Below are positions 3,726-15,755 of a DNA stretch of 15,755 bases, piece after piece; position 1 is the first letter of the stretch; every line of letters starts with the position of its first letter. Below the pieces are notes generated by a model. That model was given only the letters and a program-made list of their open reading frames with translations, ran no database searches and was not told the origin of the DNA. The position numbers and the translations under genes are program-made. Source of the DNA: a virus (lineage: Duplodnaviria; Heunggongvirae; Uroviricota; Caudoviricetes); IMG/VR virus record IMGVR_UViG_2545824742_000009. The stretch is one strand, 5' to 3'.

Positions 3726-4115
3726 TCAGGCGGCTGCACCCGCCGGTTTCTCATACTTACTGATAGTGATCTCGACCTTCCCTTTCGGGATAACCGGTCC
3801 CCACTCCACCAGCATTCTTTTCACCTGTCTGTCGTCTTCCCACACACCCGCGTGGGTCAGGGCGTCAAACAGCGCCTTGTTATAGTTGTCCAGATCGCGG
3901 ATCCGGTTATCCGGAGGAAACAACACGATCTCCACTGAAGCAGGTGCCGACGTTGGTTTTGGCAGACGACGTAACTGCTCAACTATTGCTGCGCACGCCG
4001 CGCTCTGAAATTTTCGCCCCGCCGCGCTTATCAGGCTCTTACCAGCAAATGCCCCTTTGTTGGGGTGTCGCCAGTAGGTGTTCACGCTGGGCGGGAAAGG
4101 CAGGATCAGCTTCAT
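3726..4115 (-). CDS. rusA: Holliday-junction resolvase RusA
   Basis: 129 aa. Motifs LPFPPSVNTYWRH, RDLDNYNKALFDALTHAGVWEDDRQV and GKVEITI match the RusA family as recalled from E. coli RusA. Confidence 0.88.
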   Translation of the reverse strand: MKLILPFPPSVNTYWRHPNKGAFAGKSLISAAGRKFQSAACAAIVEQLRRLPKPTSAPASVEIVLFPPDNRIRDLDNYNKALFDALTHAGVWEDDRQVKRMLVEWGPVIPKGKVEITISKYEKPAGAAA

Positions 4116-4438
4116 ACTTTCAGGCCTCTCTCATGTAACCAGTGAGTTGCACGCAGCCTTGCGTTTTCCTCACCGGCAAGCAGTGAGCGGATAATCCCGA
4201 CCGCCTCGCTGTCGTCGTCCTTCACCGCGGTATGAAGCGTGATCCCCCGGGCCACACCACGCTTTATCGTGATGACGCCTTTTTTCTCCAGTGCGCGAAG
4301 ATGCTCCACCGCTGCATTCACCGAACGGTATCCCAGCATGGTTGCCACCTCCTGATTGGTTGGCGGGAAGCCACGCTCTTTCTGATAAGAAATCAGCATA
4401 TCCAGCACCTGCTGCTGGCATTGAGTTAACGTCGTCAT
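4112..4438 (-). CDS. Small LexA-type DNA-binding-domain protein
   Basis: 108 aa. FPPTNQEVATMLGYRSVNAAVEHLRALEKKGVI resembles the LexA N-terminal winged helix. Start overlaps the upstream stop (ATGA) and its own stop overlaps the rusA start. Confidence 0.5.
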   Translation of the reverse strand: MTTLTQCQQQVLDMLISYQKERGFPPTNQEVATMLGYRSVNAAVEHLRALEKKGVITIKRGVARGITLHTAVKDDDSEAVGIIRSLLAGEENARLRATHWLHERGLKV

Positions 4439-5088
4439 GCCGCCATCTCCCTGACCAGCTTTTCCGCCTGCAGGCGAACCTGCGCCAGAAACGCCTCACC
4501 ACATGCCTCAAGTTCATCGCGCCCGATATAGCTGATTGCCGGTCCCTTCCAGGTCTTGTCGAAAACAGCAATAGCACCAGCGAAGAAAGCGCCTGTCGGC
4601 ACCTGCTTCTCATCCTTCGGGATAAACCAGGCAGGCAGTTCAAAACCAATACGCCCGCGAATAAAAGCAATATGATCTGCATCTTCCGGCCACCACACTT
4701 CGCTGGTGGCAGCTTTGATCAGGAAAACATAGCGCCCGCCCTTATCACGCATGGCACTGGCATGCTTCATGATGTAACGCATGCCGGTGATGTATTGCCC
4801 CTCATGCTGACTGGCGCGGCTGTATGGGGGATTTCCAAAGGCAGCACCTTTAAGCTCCGCAAGGCGTTCTGACCAGTCATGCGCCAGCGCGTTGTCTTCC
4901 GCCGTGTAATACGCAGCGCATTTGGCGTTATCACCGTCAGTGAACAGATCCAGAACAAACGGACCAAACAGGGTGTTAATTCCCCAGAAAATGTTGTCCG
5001 GCGTGCGCCACTGATCGCCCACTTCCTTCAGTTCATGGGCTGGTTTGTTCCGCAGTTCCACCAGCTCCTGGCAATATTTATTACTCAT
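4435..5088 (-). CDS. Phage DNA N6-adenine methyltransferase (Dam-like)
   Basis: Contains FGNPPYS (the (D/N)PP(Y/F) catalytic motif). Chosen start is ATG at 5086-5088 (MSNKY...), which overlaps the upstream TAA as TAATG; the ORF track extends to 5121. Confidence 0.8.
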   Translation of the reverse strand: MSNKYCQELVELRNKPAHELKEVGDQWRTPDNIFWGINTLFGPFVLDLFTDGDNAKCAAYYTAEDNALAHDWSERLAELKGAAFGNPPYSRASQHEGQYITGMRYIMKHASAMRDKGGRYVFLIKAATSEVWWPEDADHIAFIRGRIGFELPAWFIPKDEKQVPTGAFFAGAIAVFDKTWKGPAISYIGRDELEACGEAFLAQVRLQAEKLVREMAA

Positions 5089-5576
5089 TAAGCCCCCACG
5101 TAATTCCCTGACAGATACCACTCATCACCCGATACAGCGCGCTTGCTGCTTTTCCGTAAACACTGCTCACGACGCGCCAGAAAATTGTTTCGTTCTGGCT
5201 GGGAGTGGCTTTCACGGAATGCCGCCATCCACACCGTTGCAGCACGACGGTATAAGCCCCTGGACTCCAGTTCTTCAGCCTGGCGGGTCAGGCATAAAAT
5301 CTCCCGCGGGTCGTTAGTGCCGACATAGAAATTGCGCACAGGTCTGGTTTCACGAACTGGTTGCCGTTCCGCCTCCGGCGATATCTTTATCTGGCGCGGA
5401 AAATGTCTGCGTGTATCCCCTTCACAACGGTGAGCCACACGCCCACTCTGACGTAACTTGCTTGCTGACTGCAGAACGCGCTGCCGTGAGTAACCTGCAA
5501 AAGCATCCGCAATGTCTCCGGAAGTACACCCCGGATGGGCTTCAATGAATTTCTGAACTTCATTCAAAAGACTCAT
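5088..5576 (-). CDS. Hypothetical phage protein (162 aa); C-terminal part may resemble small ANR/PerC-like regulators
   Basis: ATG at 5574-5576 lies 2 nt after the upstream TGA; the ORF track uses GTG at 5582. Basic, Arg-rich protein with no enzymatic motif seen. The ANR/PerC resemblance is a weak recollection. Confidence 0.5.
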   Translation of the reverse strand: MSLLNEVQKFIEAHPGCTSGDIADAFAGYSRQRVLQSASKLRQSGRVAHRCEGDTRRHFPRQIKISPEAERQPVRETRPVRNFYVGTNDPREILCLTRQAEELESRGLYRRAATVWMAAFRESHSQPERNNFLARREQCLRKSSKRAVSGDEWYLSGNYVGA

Positions 5577-5578
5577 GA

Positions 5579-6397
5579 TCACCCCCTGAATCCTGCCGGG
5601 ATCTGGCTGTAGTCCACGTTGTCGTAACTGGCTTTGAAGTACGGGTCCTCACGTCTGGCTGCAGATACCGCAGGAACTTCCCAGGATTCTTCGAAATGAC
5701 GATCCGGACCAAAGAACGTGACAGCCTGTTTCACAAATTGTGTGCCGCTGTTACCCATCGCAGATACCCAGCCCGCATAGCGTTTCACACCTTCCAGCAT
5801 GGTTTCGGGGTTTACCCCCTCATTCAAACGGGCTTTCCAGGCTTTGAAGGCTGCAGATTTTGAATTGCCACCAGCACGTTTGGGATATGCCAGCCATGCC
5901 TGCTCAAACTCCGGAGAGTATTCCGGTCGGTTTGAACGAACTCGCACAGACTCATCAGCAGATGCACCAACAGCTATTGGTTCATTGACTGGTTCTTTGA
6001 CTGGTTCAAAAGAGTGACTGGTTCTGGGTGAATCTCCTGCACTACCCCCTAGTGCAACTCCTGCACTACCTGGTGAATTTGCTGCACCAGATAGTGAATT
6101 ATTTGCACTACCCCCTAGTGAATCTCCTGCACCATCCAGATGAAGGAGATAGATATTACTTGAGTTACCTTTTTCACCTTTCCGGGTGACTTTTTTTACC
6201 AGCCCGGACTCACAAAGGGCCGCAATATGATTCATCACAGAACGTTTGCTAATCTCGCACTGGTCAGCAATATGCTGGTAGCTGGGCCAGCACTCACCCT
6301 GATCGCTGGCATTATCAGCCAGCTTGATCAGAACCAGTTTTCGCAATGGATTACCCACTCGAATTTTCATCGCTTTAACCATCAGCTCCATACTCAT
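5579..6397 (-). CDS. Replication initiator-like protein (N-terminal HTH, Gly/Ser/Ala-rich linker encoded by iterons)
   Basis: 272 aa. N-terminal KLADNASDQGECWPSYQHIADQCEISKRSVMNHIAALCESGLV looks like a wHTH/replisome-organizer N-domain. The central low-complexity segment GDSLGGSANNSLSGAANSPGSAGVALGGSAGDSP is encoded by tandem DNA repeats. Confidence 0.6.
   Translation of the reverse strand: MSMELMVKAMKIRVGNPLRKLVLIKLADNASDQGECWPSYQHIADQCEISKRSVMNHIAALCESGLVKKVTRKGEKGNSSNIYLLHLDGAGDSLGGSANNSLSGAANSPGSAGVALGGSAGDSPRTSHSFEPVKEPVNEPIAVGASADESVRVRSNRPEYSPEFEQAWLAYPKRAGGNSKSAAFKAWKARLNEGVNPETMLEGVKRYAGWVSAMGNSGTQFVKQAVTFFGPDRHFEESWEVPAVSAARREDPYFKASYDNVDYSQIPAGFRG
6027..6200. repeat. Iteron-like tandem repeats plus adjacent AT-rich tract: candidate phage replication origin inside the initiator gene
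   Basis: Five or six direct repeats of about 21-24 bp containing TGCAC...(T)AGTGAA. GTGAAT/GTGCAA/GATGAA recur at about 6028, 6052, 6073, 6094, 6118 and 6139. Followed by an AT-rich stretch 6145-6200. Same layout as lambda ori within O. Confidence 0.55.
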
Positions 6398-8341: not shown

Positions 8342-9016
8342 ATGAAAACAGTCCATGACATCCGGCGGTCTAACGCCAGAAAACTGAGAGATGGTGTTGG
8401 CGGGAATTCTTCCTTTGCCACCATGATTGATCGCGAGCCAACCCAGACCAGCAGGTTTATGGGAGATGGTGCTACTAAAAATATCGGTGACAGCATGGCA
8501 AGGCACATCGAAAAATGTTTCGACCTGCCTGTCGGATGGCTTGATCAAGAACACCAGACCACGAACATCACAAAAAAACCTGATGTTTCAATCACTAACA
8601 AACAAATAACGTTAGTCCCTGTCATATCATGGGTACAGGCCGGAGCATGGAAAGAAGTTGGCTATTCTGAGGTTGATTTGAGCACAGCAGAAACTTATCC
8701 CTGCCCTGTACCCTGTGGCGAAATGACTTATATCTTGCGGGTGATTGGTGATTCAATGATTGATGAGTACCGCCCGGGAGACATGATTTTTGTTGATCCT
8801 GAAGTCCCTGCCTGCCACGGTGACGACGTTATTGCATTGATGCACGATTCAGGCGAAACCACCTTCAAGCGGTTGATAGAAGATGGAACACAGCGTTATC
8901 TCAAAGCATTAAACCCAAACTGGCCTGAGCCTTACATTAAGATTAACGGTAATTGCTCTATAATTGGTACAGTGATTTTCTCGGGAAAACCAAGAAGATA
9001 CACAATAAAGGCCTAA
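8342..9016 (+). CDS. cI: CI-type prophage repressor (HTH plus S24 LexA-like peptidase domain)
   Basis: 224 aa. C-terminal domain has GDSM (Ser nucleophile) and FKRL (Lys general base), typical of S24 autocleaving repressors. Divergent from the Cro-like gene. Confidence 0.85.
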   Translation: MKTVHDIRRSNARKLRDGVGGNSSFATMIDREPTQTSRFMGDGATKNIGDSMARHIEKCFDLPVGWLDQEHQTTNITKKPDVSITNKQITLVPVISWVQAGAWKEVGYSEVDLSTAETYPCPVPCGEMTYILRVIGDSMIDEYRPGDMIFVDPEVPACHGDDVIALMHDSGETTFKRLIEDGTQRYLKALNPNWPEPYIKINGNCSIIGTVIFSGKPRRYTIKA

Positions 9017-9055: not shown

Positions 9056-9088
9056 TTGACAATGTACCTATGAGATACATAATGTATC
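9056..9088 (+). promoter_or_regulatory. pL-like early promoter with overlapping operator
   Basis: TTGACA (9056-9061), 16-nt spacer, CATAAT (9078-9083). Operator ATGTACCTATGAGATACAT (9062-9080) shares arms with the 8257-8275 site. Perfect palindrome GATACATAATGTATC (9074-9088) overlaps the -10. Confidence 0.55.
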
Positions 9089-9521
9089 CAAAAGAAACAT
9101 GAGGCAGGCAAGATTCAAACAAAATTTGGTTGTAACACGGCGTATGGCACATGCGTCGTTAGCGGTCTGGGGACGTTAAAGGGGATAATCCACTCCTTGC
9201 TCGGGCAAACAAACCAGGTAGCCGGAATGTGCAAGTCAATGATGATGCTGATAAGACGCCTAACCAGCGTGGCGATTCGGTTTGACGCCTGGGAAGAGAC
9301 CAGGGTGCAACGATGAGGGCATTTATGGAACCGCGACAAAGTGTGGTGCCGTAACTGGCTAAGTGCTCTCAGCGTTGTGGTGAATGCGCAGGCTGATGCG
9401 CGAAAGACATTGCAGATATTGCGGAAAAGAGCTGTTCGGCGGGGCAATTAAATGCCCGTGAGAGTCTGAAATAACCGCAAGCCGGAGATCAGCACCGGTC
9501 ACCACAACAGCCACTGCTTTG

Positions 9522-9568
9522 GCGGTACCAGTTTGTACACTTGCTTCCGGCTGGTACCGCTCTTTTTA
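9522..9568 (+). terminator. Terminator-like stem-loop in the early-left leader
   Basis: 10-bp stem GCGGTACCAG / CTGGTACCGC with 19-nt loop, followed by TCTTTTTA. About 140 nt upstream of the yfdP-like start. Confidence 0.35.
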
Positions 9569-9704
9569 CAAAACAGAGAAGAGCATCACCGGACGACGGG
9601 CTCATAACCCAATCCATCCGGGCAGCAGCCACTGCAGGTGTTCTTCTCTGTTTTGTGGAGAAACTAACCGACCTTGCAGGGTCGATATGATGAGGAGCAG
9701 CAAA

Positions 9705-10067
9705 ATGGCTAGCGAACGCAGTACTGATGTGCAGGCATTTATCGGGGAGTTGGACGGCGGCGTATTTGAAACCAAAATCGGCGCAGTTCTCAGTGAAGTC
9801 GCTTCCGGTGTGATGAACACGAAAACCAAAGGTAAGGTCTCGCTCAACCTGGAAATCGAACCGTTTGATGAGAACCGTGTGAAAATCAAACACAAACTCT
9901 CATATGTTCGCCCGACTAACCGCGGGAAAATTTCCGAAGAAGACACCACCGAAACGCCGATGTATGTCAATCGCGGTGGTCGCCTGACTATTCTGCAGGA
10001 AGACCAGGGACAATTACTGACTCTTGCCGGTGAACCTGACGGAAAACTCCGCGCAGCAGGTCGTTAA
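9705..10067 (+). CDS. YfdP-like prophage protein
   Basis: 120 aa from ATG 9705 (MASERSTDVQ...), with GAGGAG 8 nt upstream. The track ORF starts at a TTG at 9519 with no support. Recalled as matching CPS-53 YfdP in size and position. Confidence 0.55.
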   Translation: MASERSTDVQAFIGELDGGVFETKIGAVLSEVASGVMNTKTKGKVSLNLEIEPFDENRVKIKHKLSYVRPTNRGKISEEDTTETPMYVNRGGRLTILQEDQGQLLTLAGEPDGKLRAAGR

Positions 10068-10132
10068 TATCGTTTTTAATAAACTGATTATTTATCTCAT
10101 CACTGAATATCTTTATATAGTGAGGACTTATT

Positions 10133-10957
10133 ATGTCTCAGAACTTAGACGCAACCGCAATTAATCAAATTCATGCCCTTATTTCTGCTCAGGGTGTTAA
10201 TGAAATTATCAGTAAGATTGGTGCCGATGCTGTGGCATTGCCTGAGAATTTCCGCATTCATGATCTGGAAAAATTTAATTTAAATCGCTTCCGTTTCCGT
10301 GGTGCGCTTTCCACTGCCAGCATCGATGACTTTACCCGTTATTCTAAAGATCTTGCAGATGAAGGCACCCGCTGCTTTATCGATGCCGATAATATGCGTG
10401 CCGTCAGTGTGCTTAACCTGGGTACTATTGATGAACCAGGTCACGCAGATAACACCGCCACTCTCAAACTGAAAAAGACAGCACCGTTCTCTGCTCTGTT
10501 GTCTGTTAACGGCGAGCGTAACTCCCAGAAGTCACTGGCAGAATGGATTGAAGACTGGGCCGACTACCTTGTGGGCTTTGATGCTAATGGTGACGCTATT
10601 CAGGCAACAAAAGCGGCTGCGGCTGTCCGTAAAATCACGATTGAAGCAAACCAGACCGCTGATTTTGAAGATAATGACTTCAGCGGCAAACGCTCCCTGA
10701 TGGAGTCTGTCGAAGCGAAGACCAAAGATATTATGCCAGTGGCATTTGAATTTAAATGCGTTCCGTTTGAAGATCTGAAAGAACGTCCATTTAAATTACG
10801 CCTCAGCATTATCACTGGCGATCGTCCTGTACTGGTTCTGCGCATTATTCAGCTGGAAGCAGTGCAGGAAGAAATGGCTAACGAATTTCGTGATCTGCTT
10901 GTTGAGAAATTCAAAGACAGCAAAGTAGAAACCTTTATTGGTACTTTCACCGCCTGA
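10133..10957 (+). CDS. YfdQ-like protein (DUF2303-type)
   Basis: 274 aa with GAGGA SD. Size and position (between yfdP-like and HD-domain yfdR-like) match CPS-53 YfdQ. Family number is from memory. Confidence 0.55.
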
Positions 10958-10969
10958 TTTCATTACTGC

Positions 10970-10992
10970 AAATGCCCCCTGCGGGGGCATTT
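10970..10992 (+). terminator. Perfect hairpin (possible attenuator/terminator) between the yfdQ-like and yfdR-like genes
   Basis: AAATGCCCCC-TGC-GGGGGCATTT, a 10-bp stem, 13 nt after the yfdQ-like stop. Only a short T tract (TTTAT) follows. Confidence 0.4.
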
Positions 10993-11086
10993 ATGGAAAC
11001 GTAATTAACTCAATAATCGCCGGATGGTGAGGGCTTCCTTTTACCCGAATTCAGCGCGGTGCAGCGCATATAACGTGGAGAACAAA

Positions 11087-11623
11087 ATGTCATTTATTAA
11101 AACTTTTTCCGGGAAGCATTTTTATTATGACAGGATAAATAAAGACAACATCGATATTAACGATATCGCGGTTTCCCTTTCAAATATCTGTCGCTTTGCC
11201 GGTCATCTTTCACACTTCTACAGCGTCGCCCAACATGCGGTGCTTTGCAGCCAGCTGGTGCCGCAGGAATTTGCTTTTGAAGCGTTAATGCATGATGCAA
11301 CAGAAGCGTATTGCCAGGACATCCCCGCGCCACTGAAACGCCTTCTTCCTGACTATAAACGGATGGAAGAAAAAATAGACGCCGTAATCCGTGAGAAATA
11401 CGGGTTACCCCCGGTTATGAGTACGCCCGTGAAATATGCCGATCTCATCATGCTGGCAACCGAACGCCGCGATCTCGGGCTTGATGATGGCTCTTTCTGG
11501 CCTGTACTGGAAGGTATCCCGGCAACAGAGATGTTCAACGTGATTCCACTGGCACCGGGCTATGCCTACGGGATGTTTATGGAACGCTTCAACGAGTTAT
11601 CGGAATTACGCAAATGTGCATAA
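11087..11623 (+). CDS. HD-domain phosphohydrolase (YfdR/YfbR-like 5'-deoxynucleotidase family)
   Basis: 178 aa from ATG 11087 (MSFIKTF...), with GGAG 9 nt upstream. Metal-binding H...HD pattern (SVAQHAV...LMHDATEAY). Size equals CPS-53 YfdR. Confidence 0.7.
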   Translation: MSFIKTFSGKHFYYDRINKDNIDINDIAVSLSNICRFAGHLSHFYSVAQHAVLCSQLVPQEFAFEALMHDATEAYCQDIPAPLKRLLPDYKRMEEKIDAVIREKYGLPPVMSTPVKYADLIMLATERRDLGLDDGSFWPVLEGIPATEMFNVIPLAPGYAYGMFMERFNELSELRKCA

Positions 11624-12492
11624 CTCATGTAGTTAGTTTTTCTGGCGGGAGAACATCTGCATATCTTGTTCACCTGATGGAAGAACAAAGAAAGGCTGGC
11701 AATAACGTCTGCTACATCTTTATGGATACCGGTTGCGAACATCCGCTGACATACCGCTTTATTCGGGAGGTTGTGAAGTTCTGGGGCATACCGCTAACTG
11801 TGTTGCAGGTCGATATAAATCCAGAGCTTGGGCAGCCAAATGGTTATACGGAATGGGAACCAAAGGATATTCAGACACGAATGCCGGTGCTTAAACCGTT
11901 TATGGACATGGTAAAAAAATATGGCACGCCATACATCGGCGGCGCGTTCTGCACTGACAGATTAAAACTCACCCCCTTCACAAAATACTGCGATGACCAT
12001 TTCGGACGAGGGAATTACATCACATGGCTGGGTATTCGTGCAGACGAACCTCGTAGGCTGAAACCGAAATCGGGCGTCCGGTATCTTGCCGAGCTATCTG
12101 ATTTTGATAAGTCGGATGTTATCCGGTGGTGGCATAAACAACCTTTTGATTTGCAAATCCCGGAGCACCTCGGGAACTGTGTTTTCTGCATCAAAAAGTC
12201 CACGCAAAAGCTGGGGCTTGCATGTAAAGACGAACCTGGTCTGATGCGAGTTTTTAATGAGCTGGTTACAGGTAAACACGTCCGGGATGGTCACCGAAAG
12301 ACAGACAAAGACGTTATGTACCGTGGTCATCTGAGCCTTGACGGGATTGCCAGAATGTATGCCGACAGCGACTACAGAAATTTGTATCAGGCGATGGTGC
12401 AAGCCAGGCGATTCGATACCGGCTCGTGTTCAGAGTCATGTGAAATCTGGGGTGATCAATTGGAATTGAAATTCGAAGAGGTGGTGGCATGA
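11614..12492 (+). CDS. PAPS-reductase-family PP-loop protein (CysH/DndC-like fold)
   Basis: 292 aa. PP-loop VSFSGGRTSAYL at the N-terminus; FMDTGCEHPLTYRFIREV matches the CysH DTG..PET..F motif. C-terminal Cys cluster CVFC...C...CSESCE. Overlaps the HD gene by 10 nt. Confidence 0.75.
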   Translation: MCITHVVSFSGGRTSAYLVHLMEEQRKAGNNVCYIFMDTGCEHPLTYRFIREVVKFWGIPLTVLQVDINPELGQPNGYTEWEPKDIQTRMPVLKPFMDMVKKYGTPYIGGAFCTDRLKLTPFTKYCDDHFGRGNYITWLGIRADEPRRLKPKSGVRYLAELSDFDKSDVIRWWHKQPFDLQIPEHLGNCVFCIKKSTQKLGLACKDEPGLMRVFNELVTGKHVRDGHRKTDKDVMYRGHLSLDGIARMYADSDYRNLYQAMVQARRFDTGSCSESCEIWGDQLELKFEEVVA

Positions 12493-12692
12493 CAATCGTA
12501 AAAACCCATACCGGCATTGTGATCACCAAAGACGGCCCGCAGGTAAAAAAACTTCACCAGACAGAGCGGATGTGGGTCGTCGGCAAAAACGAGTTTTACC
12601 ACAAAGAAACCGGACGCCGCCACTTTGCAGAAAATACGCGCCGCCGACTACTGATCGACACCATCAAGCCTATCGAGGTGAAGCATGTTTAA
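12489..12692 (+). CDS. Small hypothetical protein (67 aa)
   Basis: ATGA overlap with the upstream stop and GAGGTGG SD. Basic protein, no motif recognised. Confidence 0.5.
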   Translation: MTIVKTHTGIVITKDGPQVKKLHQTERMWVVGKNEFYHKETGRRHFAENTRRRLLIDTIKPIEVKHV

Positions 12693-12924
12693 ACAGAACG
12701 AAAAATCTATCGCTCAAATTGCTGAGTATATCCCGCGTGCGTGCCGGGGTATGCAGTTGCAGGAAGCCAAAGCGCGCCTGGAGAAAAAAATTGCGCTCTA
12801 TATCGATGACGGCTGTGATGCTGCCGTTCTTAACGCGGCGTTCGCGCCAGCTCTTAACAGTCATACGCGGGAGTCTTTTTTTTCGCGCATCGCAGCGCAG
12901 ATCCGTAAAGGAGGCAACCAGTGA
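12685..12924 (+). CDS. Small hypothetical protein (79 aa)
   Basis: GAGGTG SD 5 nt upstream. Start overlaps the previous gene by 8 nt. Confidence 0.5.
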   Translation: MFKQNEKSIAQIAEYIPRACRGMQLQEAKARLEKKIALYIDDGCDAAVLNAAFAPALNSHTRESFFSRIAAQIRKGGNQ

Positions 12925-13232
12925 GCAATTATCTGTACTGGTCTGGCTTAGTGGCTAACATCGCTCTCATGTTGTTCGTGGCTCTTTGCATCTGGGTTTG
13001 GTTTATCTGGCCTTTTGTAGAGGCCATGAGCATAACTCGGTGCTTTATTTGCGCATCAAAGACTTCTGGATGCAAACCAACTGTAAAAGCAATTATCAGA
13101 ACTTTAAAATACTGGTATCTGGATTTGCTTTTCGGCAGGGGCTGGACGCGAATTAGTAACCGCCAGTTTGAATGGGAAGGCGTCGGTAACTGGCGAATTC
13201 ACAGCAGCAAAGAAACGCAGGAGGTGAATTAA
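12921..13232 (+). CDS. Small membrane protein (103 aa) with one predicted TM helix and a Cys-rich segment
   Basis: GTG start with a strong AAAGGAGG SD. Hydrophobic segment LVANIALMLFVALCIWVWFIWPF, then CFICASKTSGCKPT. Stop overlaps the xis start (TAATG). Confidence 0.55.
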   Translation: MSNYLYWSGLVANIALMLFVALCIWVWFIWPFVEAMSITRCFICASKTSGCKPTVKAIIRTLKYWYLDLLFGRGWTRISNRQFEWEGVGNWRIHSSKETQEVN

Positions 13233-13426
13233 TGAACAACTTAATGACAACAAAACAAGTCGCCGAATTCTGTGGCGTTTCAATATCGACGGTGCTTCGC
13301 TGGAACAGCGTAAACCGGAGAACTGGCAAGAAATACAGACCAGACTTTCCAGATCCTGATATTAAATCCTGCCCAAATAAATGGGCATCACAAAAGATTT
13401 ACAGGTTTGCAGGAGTCATTGAGTAA
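13232..13426 (+). CDS. xis: Excisionase / AlpA-family HTH DNA-binding protein
   Basis: 64 aa. MTTKQVAEFCGVSISTVLRW...FPDPDIKSCPNKWASQKIYRF fits small MerR-like Xis/AlpA proteins. AGGAGGTGA SD. Convergent with the integrase. Confidence 0.7.
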   Translation: MNNLMTTKQVAEFCGVSISTVLRWNSVNRRTGKKYRPDFPDPDIKSCPNKWASQKIYRFAGVIE

Positions 13427-14531: not shown

Positions 14532-15755
14532 TCAGTTGAGGTCTAAGCTAGCACAAGTAACGATCGATTCAACCCTATCCCACCACGCCTGGTAGGCTTT
14601 ACGCTGTTCTTCTAGATAATCGCTCTTGTCATAAACCTGCCAAACCCCTGGCAGTTTATGGCCGAGCATTATTTCTGCAATATGAGGAGCAGTAAGATCA
14701 GAAAAATTTGTTCGTGCTGTTCGCCTCAAATCATGAAGAGACCAATGAGGGAATTGATACCCCAAACGCCGCCATGCGTACTGCATTAAATTGTAAGGCA
14801 GCGACTGCAATGATGTTCGACCAACGGGTTCCCTGCTTCCTTCCTTAGTAAAAAGCATATCGGAACCATTGTTCATAGAGATAGCGTTCTTTATAAGCTC
14901 TTCCACCGGTTCAATAATGGGCCGCTTTAGCGGTTCGCCCGTTATCTCCCCAGTCTTATGTCGTTCAGGTGGTACAGTCCATACCTTATTAATGAAATCA
15001 AAATCGTCCACCCTAGCAGTAATTAGCTCTGAACTACGACAGCCAAAATGCAGCAATAGCTTAATGAAGGCCCGGTATTTAGGAACCATTCGAGAACCAT
15101 CGATCGCAGCATAAAGGATTTTAATTTCATCATGTGTCAGAAACCGTTTCTTCTGACCTTTACGGATATCCATATCTTTACCCGTGATATCCGACAGCGG
15201 GCGAGTTTCAATGAGCTTTCTCTTATACGCCCAGACATGGGCCTGCTTTGCGTTAATTAGCAATCGGTCTGCTATTGCTGGAGTCTTAGTGCTAAGAGGC
15301 TCCAGGACTTCTAACCAATCATGCAATGTAGCTGCATCGTGAGGGATATTCCCGATTTTAGAAAACAGGTGCAGCTCAAACGAGCGGAGTATCTGTTCAG
15401 AACCTTTTTTATTTTTTACACAATATGCTTCATACCAGGCACGGATCACAGACTCTACCGTCATGGCCTCAGTAGCTTTTCGTTTTTCAGCCTGCTTGAC
15501 CAATCGTGGATTACGGTTTGACTCAAGTTCACCACGGAGACGGATAACTTCTTCTCTGGCCTCTTTTAATCCAGTTGCCGGGTAAGTTCCGATATCAAGA
15601 CGCTCACCTTTCCCTGCCCATTGATAACGATATTGGAACACTACGCGACCTTTCGGTGATACTCTGACAGACAGACCATCACGATCGGATTTAACCAAAA
15701 CCTTATCACGTTCCTTTCCAACGACTGAACGCAACCACGCATCAGACAGCGCCAT
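14532..15755 (-). CDS. int: Phage tyrosine integrase (N-terminal DUF4102-type arm-binding domain plus catalytic domain)
   Basis: 407 aa. HxxR box (WSLHDLRRTART) and a C-terminal Tyr region (VWQVYDKSDY). N-terminus DGLSVRVSPKGRVVFQYRYQWAGKGERLDIGTYP is typical of P4-family integrases. Start codon is the last three bases of the window. Confidence 0.9.
   Translation of the reverse strand: MALSDAWLRSVVGKERDKVLVKSDRDGLSVRVSPKGRVVFQYRYQWAGKGERLDIGTYPATGLKEAREEVIRLRGELESNRNPRLVKQAEKRKATEAMTVESVIRAWYEAYCVKNKKGSEQILRSFELHLFSKIGNIPHDAATLHDWLEVLEPLSTKTPAIADRLLINAKQAHVWAYKRKLIETRPLSDITGKDMDIRKGQKKRFLTHDEIKILYAAIDGSRMVPKYRAFIKLLLHFGCRSSELITARVDDFDFINKVWTVPPERHKTGEITGEPLKRPIIEPVEELIKNAISMNNGSDMLFTKEGSREPVGRTSLQSLPYNLMQYAWRRLGYQFPHWSLHDLRRTARTNFSDLTAPHIAEIMLGHKLPGVWQVYDKSDYLEEQRKAYQAWWDRVESIVTCASLDLN

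What the first reader, a model, noticed from the sequence alone, without database searches (positions are those of the whole stretch)
11087..12492. HD-domain phosphohydrolase plus PAPS-reductase-like PP-loop enzyme in the early-left operon
Two enzyme-like genes overlap by 10 nt directly upstream of three small ORFs and xis. The PAPS-reductase fold is shared by sulfur-transfer and DNA-modification enzymes such as DndC-type proteins, and HD enzymes act on nucleotides. The pair could be a nucleotide or DNA modification module, or a host-takeover or anti-defence module. For the K-12 CPS-53 homologues I recall a report that over-expressing yfdQ-yfdR-yfdS-yfdT inhibits chromosomal replication initiation and that YfdR interacts with DnaA; this is from memory and needs checking.
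Basis: partly seen in the sequence, partly recalled or inferred. Interest (0 to 1): 0.6.

Follow-up and report, generated by a model that had tools for sequence, protein, structure and literature searches.

The report
Known prophage genes yfdR and ninC
The two overlapping genes are real and look catalytically intact, but they are two separately travelling, already catalogued phage genes: the DnaA-binding nucleotidase YfdR, and a relative of phage lambda's long-unexplained NinC, whose closest studied relative helps a phage escape a sulfur-based DNA restriction system.

Summary
There are two same-strand ORFs, 11087-11623 (178 aa) and 11614-12492 (292 aa), overlapping by 10 nt. They lie upstream of three small ORFs and xis.

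Gene 1 is the orthologue of E. coli K-12 YfdR (173/178 identical), with the H..HD..D metal ligands kept. YfdR is a weak 5'-deoxynucleotidase that binds DnaA.

Gene 2 is not a K-12 yfdS or yfdT homologue. It belongs to the phage lambda NinC (Orf290) family, at 78.7% identity. It is a PP-loop enzyme with an invariant SFSGGR(T/S)SA motif, three invariant cysteines and a conserved C-terminal CSESCE tail. Its best defence-library match is the phosphorothioation protein SspD.

The two genes are not an obligate module. ninC is a single-gene cassette with breakpoints at its own borders. It fills the slot that yfdS holds in K-12 and mEp460. Outside one E. coli lineage it is essentially never adjacent to yfdR.

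NinC domains are repeatedly fused to DNA methyltransferases, including C5-MTase-NinC-Dam triple fusions. A 55%-identical NinC-Dam fusion in Vibrio phage 44E38.1 is part of an experimentally shown anti-Dnd determinant.

The most likely reading is two independent accessory genes: one interferes with host replication or the dNMP pool, and the other is a DNA-modification or anti-restriction enzyme. Both are already known, so interest is modest.

The parts
11087..11623 (+). yfdR: HD-domain 5'-deoxynucleotidase and DnaA-binding protein, 178 aa
   Evidence: 173/178 identical to K-12 YfdR. phrog_318 E=5e-109. HD ligands align to PDB 2gz4. RefSeq annotates identical loci as 'yfdR: 5'-deoxynucleotidase'.
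11614..12492 (+). ninC-family gene: PP-loop ATP-pyrophosphatase-fold protein ('PAPS reductase family'), 292 aa
11614..11623 (+). 10-nt gene overlap, which is also the left cassette junction
   Evidence: Homology to K-12 CPS-53 and to mEp460 ends at 11621. Homology to Stx2a-type phages (L069) begins at 11612, and to lambda at 11627. K-12 yfdS starts at the same relative position.
12493..12499 (+). right cassette junction
   Evidence: Homology to mEp460 resumes at 12499. The 877 bp of ninC therefore replace the 361-bp yfdS-like gene exactly.
10133..10957 (+). yfdQ (DUF2303), genetic partner of yfdR in the K-12 replication-inhibition phenotype
   Evidence: PF10065 E=6.5e-92. Part of the 97%-identical block 9686-11621 shared with K-12. 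Required with yfdR in PMC4776307.
9711..10067 (+). yfdP
   Evidence: phrog_204 E=8e-49. RefSeq annotates it as 'protein YfdP'.
12489..13232 (+). three small ORFs (67, 79 and 103 aa) of unknown function
   Evidence: phrog_1226, phrog_1344 and phrog_2531. The first two also follow the yfdS-like gene in mEp460, so they are not specific to ninC.
13232..13426 (+). excisionase (xis)
   Evidence: phrog_1553 E=6e-35.
9056..9083 (+). promoter-like site (TTGACA-16-CATAAT, 11/12) after the repressor gene and its terminator-like hairpin; candidate early-left promoter
   Evidence: Consensus scan only. The number of sites in the region does not exceed the shuffled expectation.
4435..5121 (-). phage Dam-type N6-adenine DNA methyltransferase, a possible functional partner of NinC
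   Evidence: PF05869 E=1e-45. 72% identical to the C-terminal half of the NinC-Dam fusion P0114. The partnership itself is inferred.

Best explanation
Two independent accessory genes sit side by side in the early-left (xis-proximal) gene array of a lambdoid, SfV/CPS-53-like E. coli prophage.

Gene 1 is YfdR. It is an HD-domain dNMP phosphatase of low affinity. Its K-12 orthologue binds DnaA domain I. When over-supplied with YfdQ plus YfdS or YfdT, it blocks initiation at oriC. A plausible phage role is damping host replication or trimming dNMP pools early in development.

Gene 2 is a NinC-family enzyme with a PP-loop ATP-pyrophosphatase core. It has three invariant cysteines suited to bind a [4Fe-4S] cluster with one open iron, and a flexible C-terminal Cys-x3-Cys tail suited to carry persulfide sulfur. 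The inferred mechanism is as follows. NinC uses ATP and mobilised sulfur to modify phage DNA, or it plugs into the host phosphorothioation machinery. Either way, phosphorothioate-dependent restriction (Dnd or Ssp type) no longer treats the phage as foreign. In this it acts alongside orphan DNA methyltransferases as an anti-restriction function.

What is shown here: gene identities, motif conservation, cassette boundaries, methyltransferase fusions, and the published anti-Dnd phenotype of a homologue. What is inferred: Fe-S binding, sulfur transfer, the substrate, and any activity of this particular copy.

My confidence is about 0.9 for the gene identities and the independence of the two genes. 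It is about 0.45 for the anti-phosphorothioate-restriction mechanism.
For: YfdR
- 97% identity to K-12 YfdR, with the HD ligands kept.
- DnaA binding and initiation inhibition are reported in PMC4776307.

NinC identity
- 78.7% identical to lambda NinC, 54% to Salmonella phage SF3 'NinC protein', 30% to phage chi 'ninC-like'.

NinC conservation, over 28 sequences down to 31% identity
- S8, S10, G11, G12, R13, S15, C113, K118, R142, D144, E145, R148, G187, N188, C189, C192 and K195 are all 28/28.
- The C-terminal C-x-E-S-C is kept in 26-27 of 28.

NinC fold
- The tail 266-292 is disordered in the model, as are the Cys-bearing tails of APS/PAPS reductases (background knowledge).
- The best defence-library match is SspD (E=1.5e-15), then BrxP and DndC.

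Fusions
- NinC-Dam (PF05869) in P0084, P0097, P0114 and L120.
- C5-MTase(PF00145)-NinC-Dam(PF05869) in Sodalis (L122).
- C5-MTase-NinC-D12 Dam(PF02086) in Mixta (L117).
- A Dam-like gene lies 0.1-2.4 kb downstream on the same strand in 11 of 50 diverse loci.
- The window's own Dam is 72% identical to the MTase half of one fusion.

Experiment
- P0097 is the 479-aa PAPS-Dam protein p0018 of Vibrio phage 44E38.1. It is 55% identical to the window protein over 283 aa.
- Moving p0018 and p0019 into a sensitive phage gave infectivity on a Dnd-carrying host (bioRxiv 10.1101/2021.05.05.442762; cited as anti-Dnd in PMC13551039).

Independence of the two genes
- Breakpoints at 11621 and 12499.
- The yfdR-ninC junction is in 282 genomes, against 2970 with yfdR and 548 with ninC.
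- No adjacent YfdR in about 50 loci of other species or in Stx2a-type phages.
Against: - All established phosphorothioation systems need a PAPS-reductase-domain protein plus an NTPase (DndD, SspC or BrxC) (PMC12914056). No such NTPase is in the window or among the conserved NinC neighbours.
- The SspD and DndC profile matches cover only the N-terminal half of NinC.
- The PP-loop has T where the canonical SGGxDS has D.
- In the Vibrio experiment two genes were moved together and a Dam domain is fused, so the effect has not been pinned to the PAPS domain alone.
- Lambda ninC is dispensable on laboratory K-12 (PMC10695390), and no phenotype is known for any E. coli copy.
- For YfdR, the authors themselves caution that the over-expression effect may be an artefact. 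Deleting yfdQRST had no effect. The yfdS/yfdT component is missing here.
Confidence: 0.7

Rival explanations
1. The HD phosphohydrolase and the PP-loop enzyme form one two-enzyme nucleotide or DNA modification pathway (the first reader's module). For example, the HD enzyme would prepare or recycle a nucleotide that the PP-loop enzyme adenylates or thiolates.
For: The 10-nt overlap implies co-transcription and possibly coupled translation. In E. coli about half of the ninC-carrying genomes (282 of 548) have ninC directly after yfdR. In one Erwiniaceae locus (L120) a YfdR homologue lies 1.5 kb upstream of a NinC-Dam fusion.
Against: - The same 10-nt overlap joins yfdR to the unrelated yfdS in K-12, and homology breaks exactly at the gene border.
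- All yfdR-adjacent ninC copies seen belong to one E. coli lineage with high NinC identity. Those in IMG/VR are 96% identical or more, so this may be a single recombination event.
- In lambda, P22-like, chi-like and Vibrio phages, and in about 50 loci of other species, NinC occurs without an adjacent YfdR.
- Stx2a-type phages have an unrelated 147-aa ORF upstream instead.
- More than 90% of yfdR-bearing genomes lack the junction.
Confidence: 0.08
2. NinC does not act on DNA. It is a tRNA, RNA or small-molecule modifying PP-loop enzyme (thiolation or amidation type). The anti-Dnd effect in the Vibrio phage would then come from the fused Dam domain or the co-transferred gene p0019.
Against: The fusion partners are DNA methyltransferases of three different families, in at least two clearly different architectures. 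The Dam domain of the resistant phage is 96% identical to the stand-alone Dam of the sensitive phage, so the new element is the PAPS domain. The best defence-HMM match is SspD.
Confidence: 0.15
3. NinC is an auxiliary metabolic gene: a true PAPS/APS reductase that boosts sulfate assimilation during infection, as the database name suggests.
For: PF01507 passes its gathering score (37.1 against 22.5). CysH and APS reductase are the closest solved structures.
Against: Only residues 5-72 match PF01507. The CysH equivalog model scores 20.3 against a cut-off of 154. The C-terminal motif is CSESCE, not the reductase ECGLH. The foldseek TM-score is only 0.35-0.47. Fusion to DNA methyltransferases makes no sense for sulfate assimilation.
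Confidence: 0.03
4. The region's main job is host take-over by blocking DnaA-dependent initiation, as in the K-12 yfdQRST over-expression phenotype. NinC, or one of the small ORFs, would take over the helper role of YfdS or YfdT.
For: yfdQ and yfdR are present and 97% identical at the DNA level to K-12. YfdR binds DnaA through Phe46. ninC occupies the yfdS slot exactly.
Against: NinC shares no similarity with YfdS or YfdT. The K-12 phenotype needs yfdS or yfdT. Nothing suggests that a 292-aa PP-loop enzyme with strongly conserved catalytic residues is a mere helper. The K-12 deletion had no phenotype.
Confidence: 0.1

Closest known systems
E. coli K-12 YfdR (b2361, cryptic prophage CPS-53)
   Same: 173/178 residues identical, same length, same upstream genes yfdP-yfdQ, same 10-nt overlap with the next gene. 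RefSeq gives the same name to identical loci.
   Different: The downstream partners differ. K-12 has yfdS (DUF551) and yfdT, while the window has ninC and three other small ORFs. The published yfdQR(S/T) phenotype therefore cannot be transferred unchanged.
Bacteriophage lambda NinC (Orf290, 'phosphoadenosine phosphosulfate reductase family protein')
   Same: 78.7% identity over the whole protein, and 75% identity over 820 nt of DNA confined to the ORF. Both are single-gene accessory cassettes. Lambda NinC is non-essential and has no assigned function.
   Different: In lambda the gene lies in the nin region, next to ninB and between P and Q on the rightward early operon. Here it lies in the leftward operon between yfdR and xis.
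Vibrio phage 44E38.1 p0018 (PAPS-Dam fusion, anti-Dnd determinant; Piel et al. 2022)
   Same: 55% identity over 283 aa, with all conserved motifs including SFSGGRTSA, GNCVFCIKK and GSCSESCE. The window also carries a PF05869 Dam, as a separate gene.
   Different: In the Vibrio phage NinC is fused to Dam, and the host is a Vibrio with a dnd system. Here the two are separate genes 6.5 kb apart on opposite strands. No Dnd or Ssp context is known for this host.
DndC / SspD / BrxP (PAPS-reductase-domain proteins of DNA phosphorothioation systems)
   Same: PP-loop fold. Profile matches to SspD (E=1.5e-15), BrxP (1e-4) and DndC (9e-4). Three conserved cysteines, as described for the DndC [4Fe-4S] site, plus a cysteine dyad (for DndC; for NinC).
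   Different: Only the N-terminal half aligns. There is no DndD/SspC/BrxC NTPase, no DndE/SspB and no cysteine desulfurase nearby. The gene is phage-borne rather than in a host defence island. The PP-loop reads SGGRTS rather than SGGxDS.
Assimilatory APS/PAPS reductase (CysH)
   Different: 13-22% identity. The C-terminal ECGLH catalytic motif is absent. NinC has about 100 family-specific residues.

Membership tests
YfdR / YfbR-like HD-domain 5'-deoxynucleotidase | H...HD...D metal-binding residues of the HD superfamily | tested here: met
   H50, H69-D70 and D119 align with the corresponding residues of the solved homologue Atu1052 (2gz4, E=1.9e-13). They are identical in K-12 YfdR.
YfdR / YfbR-like HD-domain 5'-deoxynucleotidase | Orthology to the characterised K-12 protein | tested here: met
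   97% identity over all 178 residues, with conserved synteny to yfdP and yfdQ.
YfdR / YfbR-like HD-domain 5'-deoxynucleotidase | Curated model cut-offs (Pfam PF12917, NCBIfam NF003009) | tested here: not met
   PF12917 scores 24.4 bits against a cut-off of 25.9. NF003009 (YfbR equivalog) scores 19.9 against 122. YfdR is therefore a distant relative of YfbR, not an equivalog. This agrees with the much lower nucleotide affinity reported for YfdR.
YfdR / YfbR-like HD-domain 5'-deoxynucleotidase | dNMP phosphatase activity; binding to DnaA domain I | not testable with these tools
   Known only for the K-12 protein (PMC4776307).
Lambda NinC (Orf290) family | Full-length homology to lambda NinC | tested here: met
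   tblastn gives 78.7% identity over query residues 2-292, E=2e-162. blastn matches 11627-12446 at 75%.
Lambda NinC (Orf290) family | Family-wide motifs: SFSGGR(T/S)SA, FC(T/S)xxxK, WxGxRxDE, GNCxxCxKK and a C-terminal CxESCE | tested here: met
   All are present in the window protein. They are invariant or nearly so in 28 sequences down to 31% identity.
PAPS/APS reductase (CysH, PF01507 sensu stricto) | Domain model matched over its length | tested here: not met
   The score is above the gathering score, but only profile positions 2-66 of 175 are matched.
PAPS/APS reductase (CysH, PF01507 sensu stricto) | C-terminal ECGLH catalytic cysteine motif; CysH equivalog score | tested here: not met
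   The tail reads GSCSESCEIW. NF002537 scores 20.3 against a cut-off of 154.
DndC/SspD/BrxP phosphorothioation PP-loop proteins | Profile match to the family | tested here: inconclusive
   SspD E=1.5e-15, but only residues 5-152 against profile positions 2-125 of 277. BrxP 1e-4 and DndC 9e-4.
DndC/SspD/BrxP phosphorothioation PP-loop proteins | PP-loop ATP-binding motif and a three-cysteine [4Fe-4S] site | tested here: inconclusive
   A variant PP-loop (SGGRTS) and three invariant cysteines (C113, C189, C192) are present. Cluster binding and the geometry of the cysteines could not be examined.
DndC/SspD/BrxP phosphorothioation PP-loop proteins | Adjacent NTPase partner (DndD, SspC or BrxC) and a DNA-recognition partner | tested here: not met
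   None in the window. None among the 25 commonest neighbour clusters in 50 diverse loci. The requirement is stated in PMC12914056.
DndC/SspD/BrxP phosphorothioation PP-loop proteins | Produces phosphorothioate in DNA | not testable with these tools
   Needs LC-MS of dinucleotides from phage DNA.

The most novel reading that the evidence does not exclude
NinC-family proteins, including lambda NinC, are stand-alone phage DNA-modifying enzymes. They would install phosphorothioate, or another ATP- and sulfur-dependent mark, without a DndD/SspC-type NTPase. Targeting would come from a fused or co-encoded DNA methyltransferase, or from hijacked host Dnd/Ssp subunits. That would be a minimal viral phosphorothioation system and would give lambda's Orf290 a function after four decades.
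Probability: 0.15. Interest if true: 0.75.

Novelty: already known. Interest (0 to 1): 0.3.

Why it matters
Nothing in this window is new as a sequence. Identical or near-identical copies are annotated in hundreds of E. coli genomes and Stx phages.

The useful outcome is a correction and a link. The 'PAPS reductase' next to yfdR is lambda NinC's family, not a yfdS/yfdT equivalent. That family is tied by repeated methyltransferase fusions and by one genetic experiment to evasion of phosphorothioate-based restriction.

This makes the old question of what lambda NinC does directly testable in E. coli, using existing Dnd and Ssp strains.

It also warns against transferring the K-12 yfdQRST replication-inhibition phenotype to prophages where the S/T slot holds a different cassette.

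Tried and rejected
1. K-12 yfdS or yfdT as homologues of gene 2: rejected (BLASTP E=3.0 and 4.9). o103 against YfdT also gave nothing.
4. The IMG/VR scan with the alignment returned only relatives of 93% identity or more, so it was useless for diversity.
5. Looked for a conserved partner gene of NinC by clustering all ORFs within 4 kb in 50 diverse loci. No universal partner emerged. The commonest clusters were an integrase (13 loci), a Dam-like MTase (11) and a DUF3268 zinc-finger protein (10, mostly Xenorhabdus/Photorhabdus). NinB and NinG each appeared in 7.
6. Literature searches on 'NinC' alone were swamped by unrelated acronyms.
7. The paper with the YfdR enzymology (Zimmerman 2008) is not held, so YfdR activity is cited second-hand from PMC4776307.
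8. The geometry of the cysteines in the AF2 model could not be inspected because coordinates are not exposed.
9. The promoter/terminator scan gave no more sites than shuffled sequence. It supports the operon reading only weakly.
Full report
**Observation**

The window carries a same-strand array:
- yfdP-like, 9711-10067
- yfdQ/DUF2303, 10133-10957
- an HD-domain gene, 11087-11623
- a 292-aa 'PAPS reductase' gene, 11614-12492
- three small ORFs, 12489-13232
- an excisionase, 13232-13426

The two genes of the finding overlap by 10 nt. The sequence ATGTGCATAA contains the start of the second gene and the stop of the first.

Family searches confirm both assignments:
- The first gene matches phrog_318 'deoxyribonucleoside 5' monophosphate phosphatase' at E=5e-109. 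Its Pfam YfbR-like/HD_3 matches are weak.
- The second gene matches PF01507 at E=4e-9 and phrog_424 at E=2e-93.

A repressor with an S24 peptidase domain lies just upstream at 8342-9016. It is followed by a terminator-like hairpin and a near-consensus promoter-like site at 9056-9083.

**Gene 1 is YfdR**

It is 173/178 identical to E. coli K-12 YfdR. The DNA from 9686 to 11621 is 97% identical to the K-12 CPS-53 yfdP-yfdQ-yfdR block. The HD metal ligands (H50, H69-D70, D119) align with the solved homologue Atu1052.

Noguchi and Katayama 2016 (PMC4776307) showed three things:
- Multicopy yfdQ + yfdR + (yfdS or yfdT) inhibits initiation at oriC.
- Purified YfdR binds DnaA in a Phe46-dependent manner.
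[quoted passage not shown] It also reports that deleting the cluster has no phenotype, and that the over-expression effect might be an artefact.

**Gene 2 is not a K-12 homologue; it is NinC**

The 292-aa protein has no similarity to YfdS or YfdT (E=3.0 and 4.9). Neither of those is encoded anywhere in the window.

A translated search of phage genomes shows instead that it belongs to the phage lambda NinC (Orf290) family:
- 78.7% identity over residues 2-292 to lambda ninC, which sits next to ninB
- 54% to Salmonella phage SF3 'NinC protein'
- 30% to phage chi 'ninC-like protein'

In all, 561 phage records hold a homologue, 340 of them Vibrio phages. Lambda NinC is non-essential and is listed among the poorly understood lambda proteins.

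**Anatomy of NinC**

An alignment of 20 homologues, and a second of 28 sequences reaching down to 31% identity, show these conserved features:
- an invariant SFSGGR(T/S)SA PP-loop-like motif
- a D/N-T-G-x-E motif
- invariant C113, K118, R142, D144, E145 and R148
- an invariant G-N-C189-x-x-C192-x-K motif
- R237
- a C-terminal C272-x-E-S-C276-E motif in 26-27 of 28 sequences

C126 is not conserved in distant members.

Three invariant cysteines plus a mobile cysteine pair is the arrangement described for DndC and for the [4Fe-4S]-dependent thiolases (for DndC). That NinC binds such a cluster is my inference.

NinC is not a true CysH. Only the first 70 residues match PF01507. The CysH equivalog model scores 20 against a cut-off of 154. 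The ECGLH motif is absent.

Among defence-system models the best match is SspD (E=1.5e-15, N-terminal half only), followed by BrxP and DndC.

**The two genes are not a module**

DNA comparison gives sharp breakpoints:
- Homology to K-12 and to phage mEp460 stops at 11621.
- Homology to mEp460 resumes at 12499.
- Homology to Stx2a-type phages starts at 11612.
- Homology to lambda is confined to 11627-12446.

ninC is therefore a single-gene cassette. It replaces the 120-aa yfdS-like (DUF551) gene exactly, and it re-uses the same 10-nt overlap with yfdR that yfdS uses in K-12.

In complete E. coli genomes:
- yfdR is in 2970 of 5426.
- ninC is in 548.
- The junction-spanning query is covered at 80% or more in 282.

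All yfdR-adjacent copies seen in IMG/VR have NinC of 96% identity or more, which is consistent with one event spread by descent. The 93-94% lineage found in Stx2a-type phages has an unrelated 147-aa ORF upstream.

About 50 loci from other species came from a scan of one genome per species. None has YfdR directly upstream. The nearest is 1.5 kb away in one Erwiniaceae locus.

NinC turns up in two kinds of setting:
- nin regions, with NinB, NinG and DnaB-type helicase genes
- integrase-proximal leftward operons, with exonuclease and SSB genes

**What NinC travels with**

No universal partner emerged from clustering neighbours. DNA methyltransferases recur, however. A PF05869 Dam-like gene lies 0.1-2.4 kb downstream on the same strand in 11 of 50 loci.

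NinC is also fused to methyltransferases in several architectures:
- NinC-Dam(PF05869) in Vibrio phages (P0084, P0097), in P0114 and in an Erwiniaceae prophage (L120)
- C5-cytosine MTase(PF00145)-NinC-Dam(PF05869) in Sodalis (L122, 1031 aa)
- C5-MTase-NinC-D12-class Dam(PF02086) in Mixta (L117, 1099 aa)

The window itself encodes a PF05869 Dam at 4435-5121 on the minus strand. It is 72% identical to the methyltransferase half of P0114.

Orphan methyltransferases are common in nin regions, so mere proximity is weak evidence. Fusion to three methyltransferase families is stronger.

**Published experiment on a homologue**

P0097 is named by its source 'Dam methyltransferase with PAPS reductase domain [Vibrio phage 44E38.1]'. 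Its length is 479 aa and its domain limits match protein p0018 of Piel et al.. It is 55% identical to the window protein over 283 residues, with every motif kept.

In that study, two genes specific to the phages that infect a Dnd-carrying Vibrio crassostreae were recombined into a sensitive phage. These were p0018 and the unknown p0019. The recombinants then reached 10^11 PFU/ml on a host that carried Dnd and lacked a retron. [quoted passage not shown] The Dam domain was 96% identical to the stand-alone Dam of the sensitive phage (bioRxiv 10.1101/2021.05.05.442762).

A 2026 paper cites this as a phage PAPS reductase promoting evasion of Dnd. It also notes that PAPS reductases cluster in anti-defence hotspots (PMC13551039).

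**Mechanism and its weak points**

The best-supported reading is that NinC is a sulfur- and ATP-dependent nucleic-acid-modifying enzyme. It would serve, like orphan methyltransferases, to make phage DNA look 'self' to phosphorothioate-sensing restriction.

The weak points:
- Every characterised phosphorothioation system also needs a DndD/SspC/BrxC NTPase (PMC12914056), and none accompanies NinC. NinC would have to borrow host subunits or be targeted by a methyltransferase.
- The homology to SspD and DndC covers only half the protein.
- The PP-loop carries T in place of the canonical D.
- The Vibrio experiment did not isolate the PAPS domain.

A role on tRNA or on a small molecule is therefore not excluded.

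**Verdict**

Both genes are already known and annotated; RefSeq calls them 'yfdR: 5'-deoxynucleotidase' and 'phosphoadenosine phosphosulfate reductase family protein' at identical loci.

The added value is threefold:
- identifying gene 2 as NinC
- showing that the pairing with yfdR is one lineage's cassette swap
- linking the NinC family to methyltransferase fusions and to anti-Dnd genetics

Together these turn the function of lambda NinC into a directly testable question.

Noticed in passing
[not shown]
   Followed up: partly
window 4435-5121 (- strand): A phage Dam-type N6-adenine methyltransferase (PF05869, NPPY motif) lies in the nin-like region. It is 72% identical to the methyltransferase half of NinC-Dam fusion proteins. 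The K-12 yfdM-yfdN region is a 95%-identical remnant of this stretch (window 4822-5654).
   Followed up: partly
L117 8402-11701 (Mixta tenebrionis); L122 8438-11533 (Sodalis sp.): Single ORFs of 1099 and 1031 aa combine a C5-cytosine methyltransferase, a NinC domain and an N6-adenine methyltransferase. The last is D12 class in one and PF05869 in the other. They look like polyvalent DNA-modification proteins.
   Followed up: partly
window 4112-4438 (- strand): A 108-aa protein consists of a LexA DNA-binding domain only (PF01726, E=3e-19), with no S24 peptidase domain. It lies between the Dam gene and rusA. It could be a non-cleavable LexA mimic that affects the SOS response.
   Followed up: no
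window 5088-5582 (- strand): A 164-aa protein has a PerC transcriptional activator domain (PF06069, E=9e-10). My understanding is that PerC/Pch-type regulators encoded by prophages control virulence loci in pathogenic E. coli.
   Followed up: no
L084-L094 (genome-contig hits): NinC matches of 79% identity occur on contigs of about 48.4-48.5 kb, or on fragments, in assemblies labelled Pseudomonas, Oceanobacillus, Bradyrhizobium, Kitasatospora, Shewanella and others. These are almost certainly phage lambda control-DNA contamination of those assemblies.
   Followed up: no
window 9084-9710: About 600 bp lie between the promoter-like site at 9056-9083 and yfdP, with no ORF that matches any family. 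Homology to K-12 begins only at 9686, whereas mEp460 shares the region from 9109. The stretch could hold a small antiterminator gene or a regulatory RNA.
   Followed up: no
P0023 (294 aa homologue): This is a chimeric protein. The N-terminal 79% is NinC (94% identical) and it is joined to a DUF551 (yfdS-type) C-terminus. It shows recombination between the two alternative cassettes of this slot.
   Followed up: no
window 14532-15755 (- strand): The integrase is convergent with xis and its start codon lies at the last base of the window. The att site and any tRNA target lie outside the window. The integrase belongs to the same cluster as those next to NinC in Xenorhabdus and Photorhabdus prophages.
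   Followed up: no
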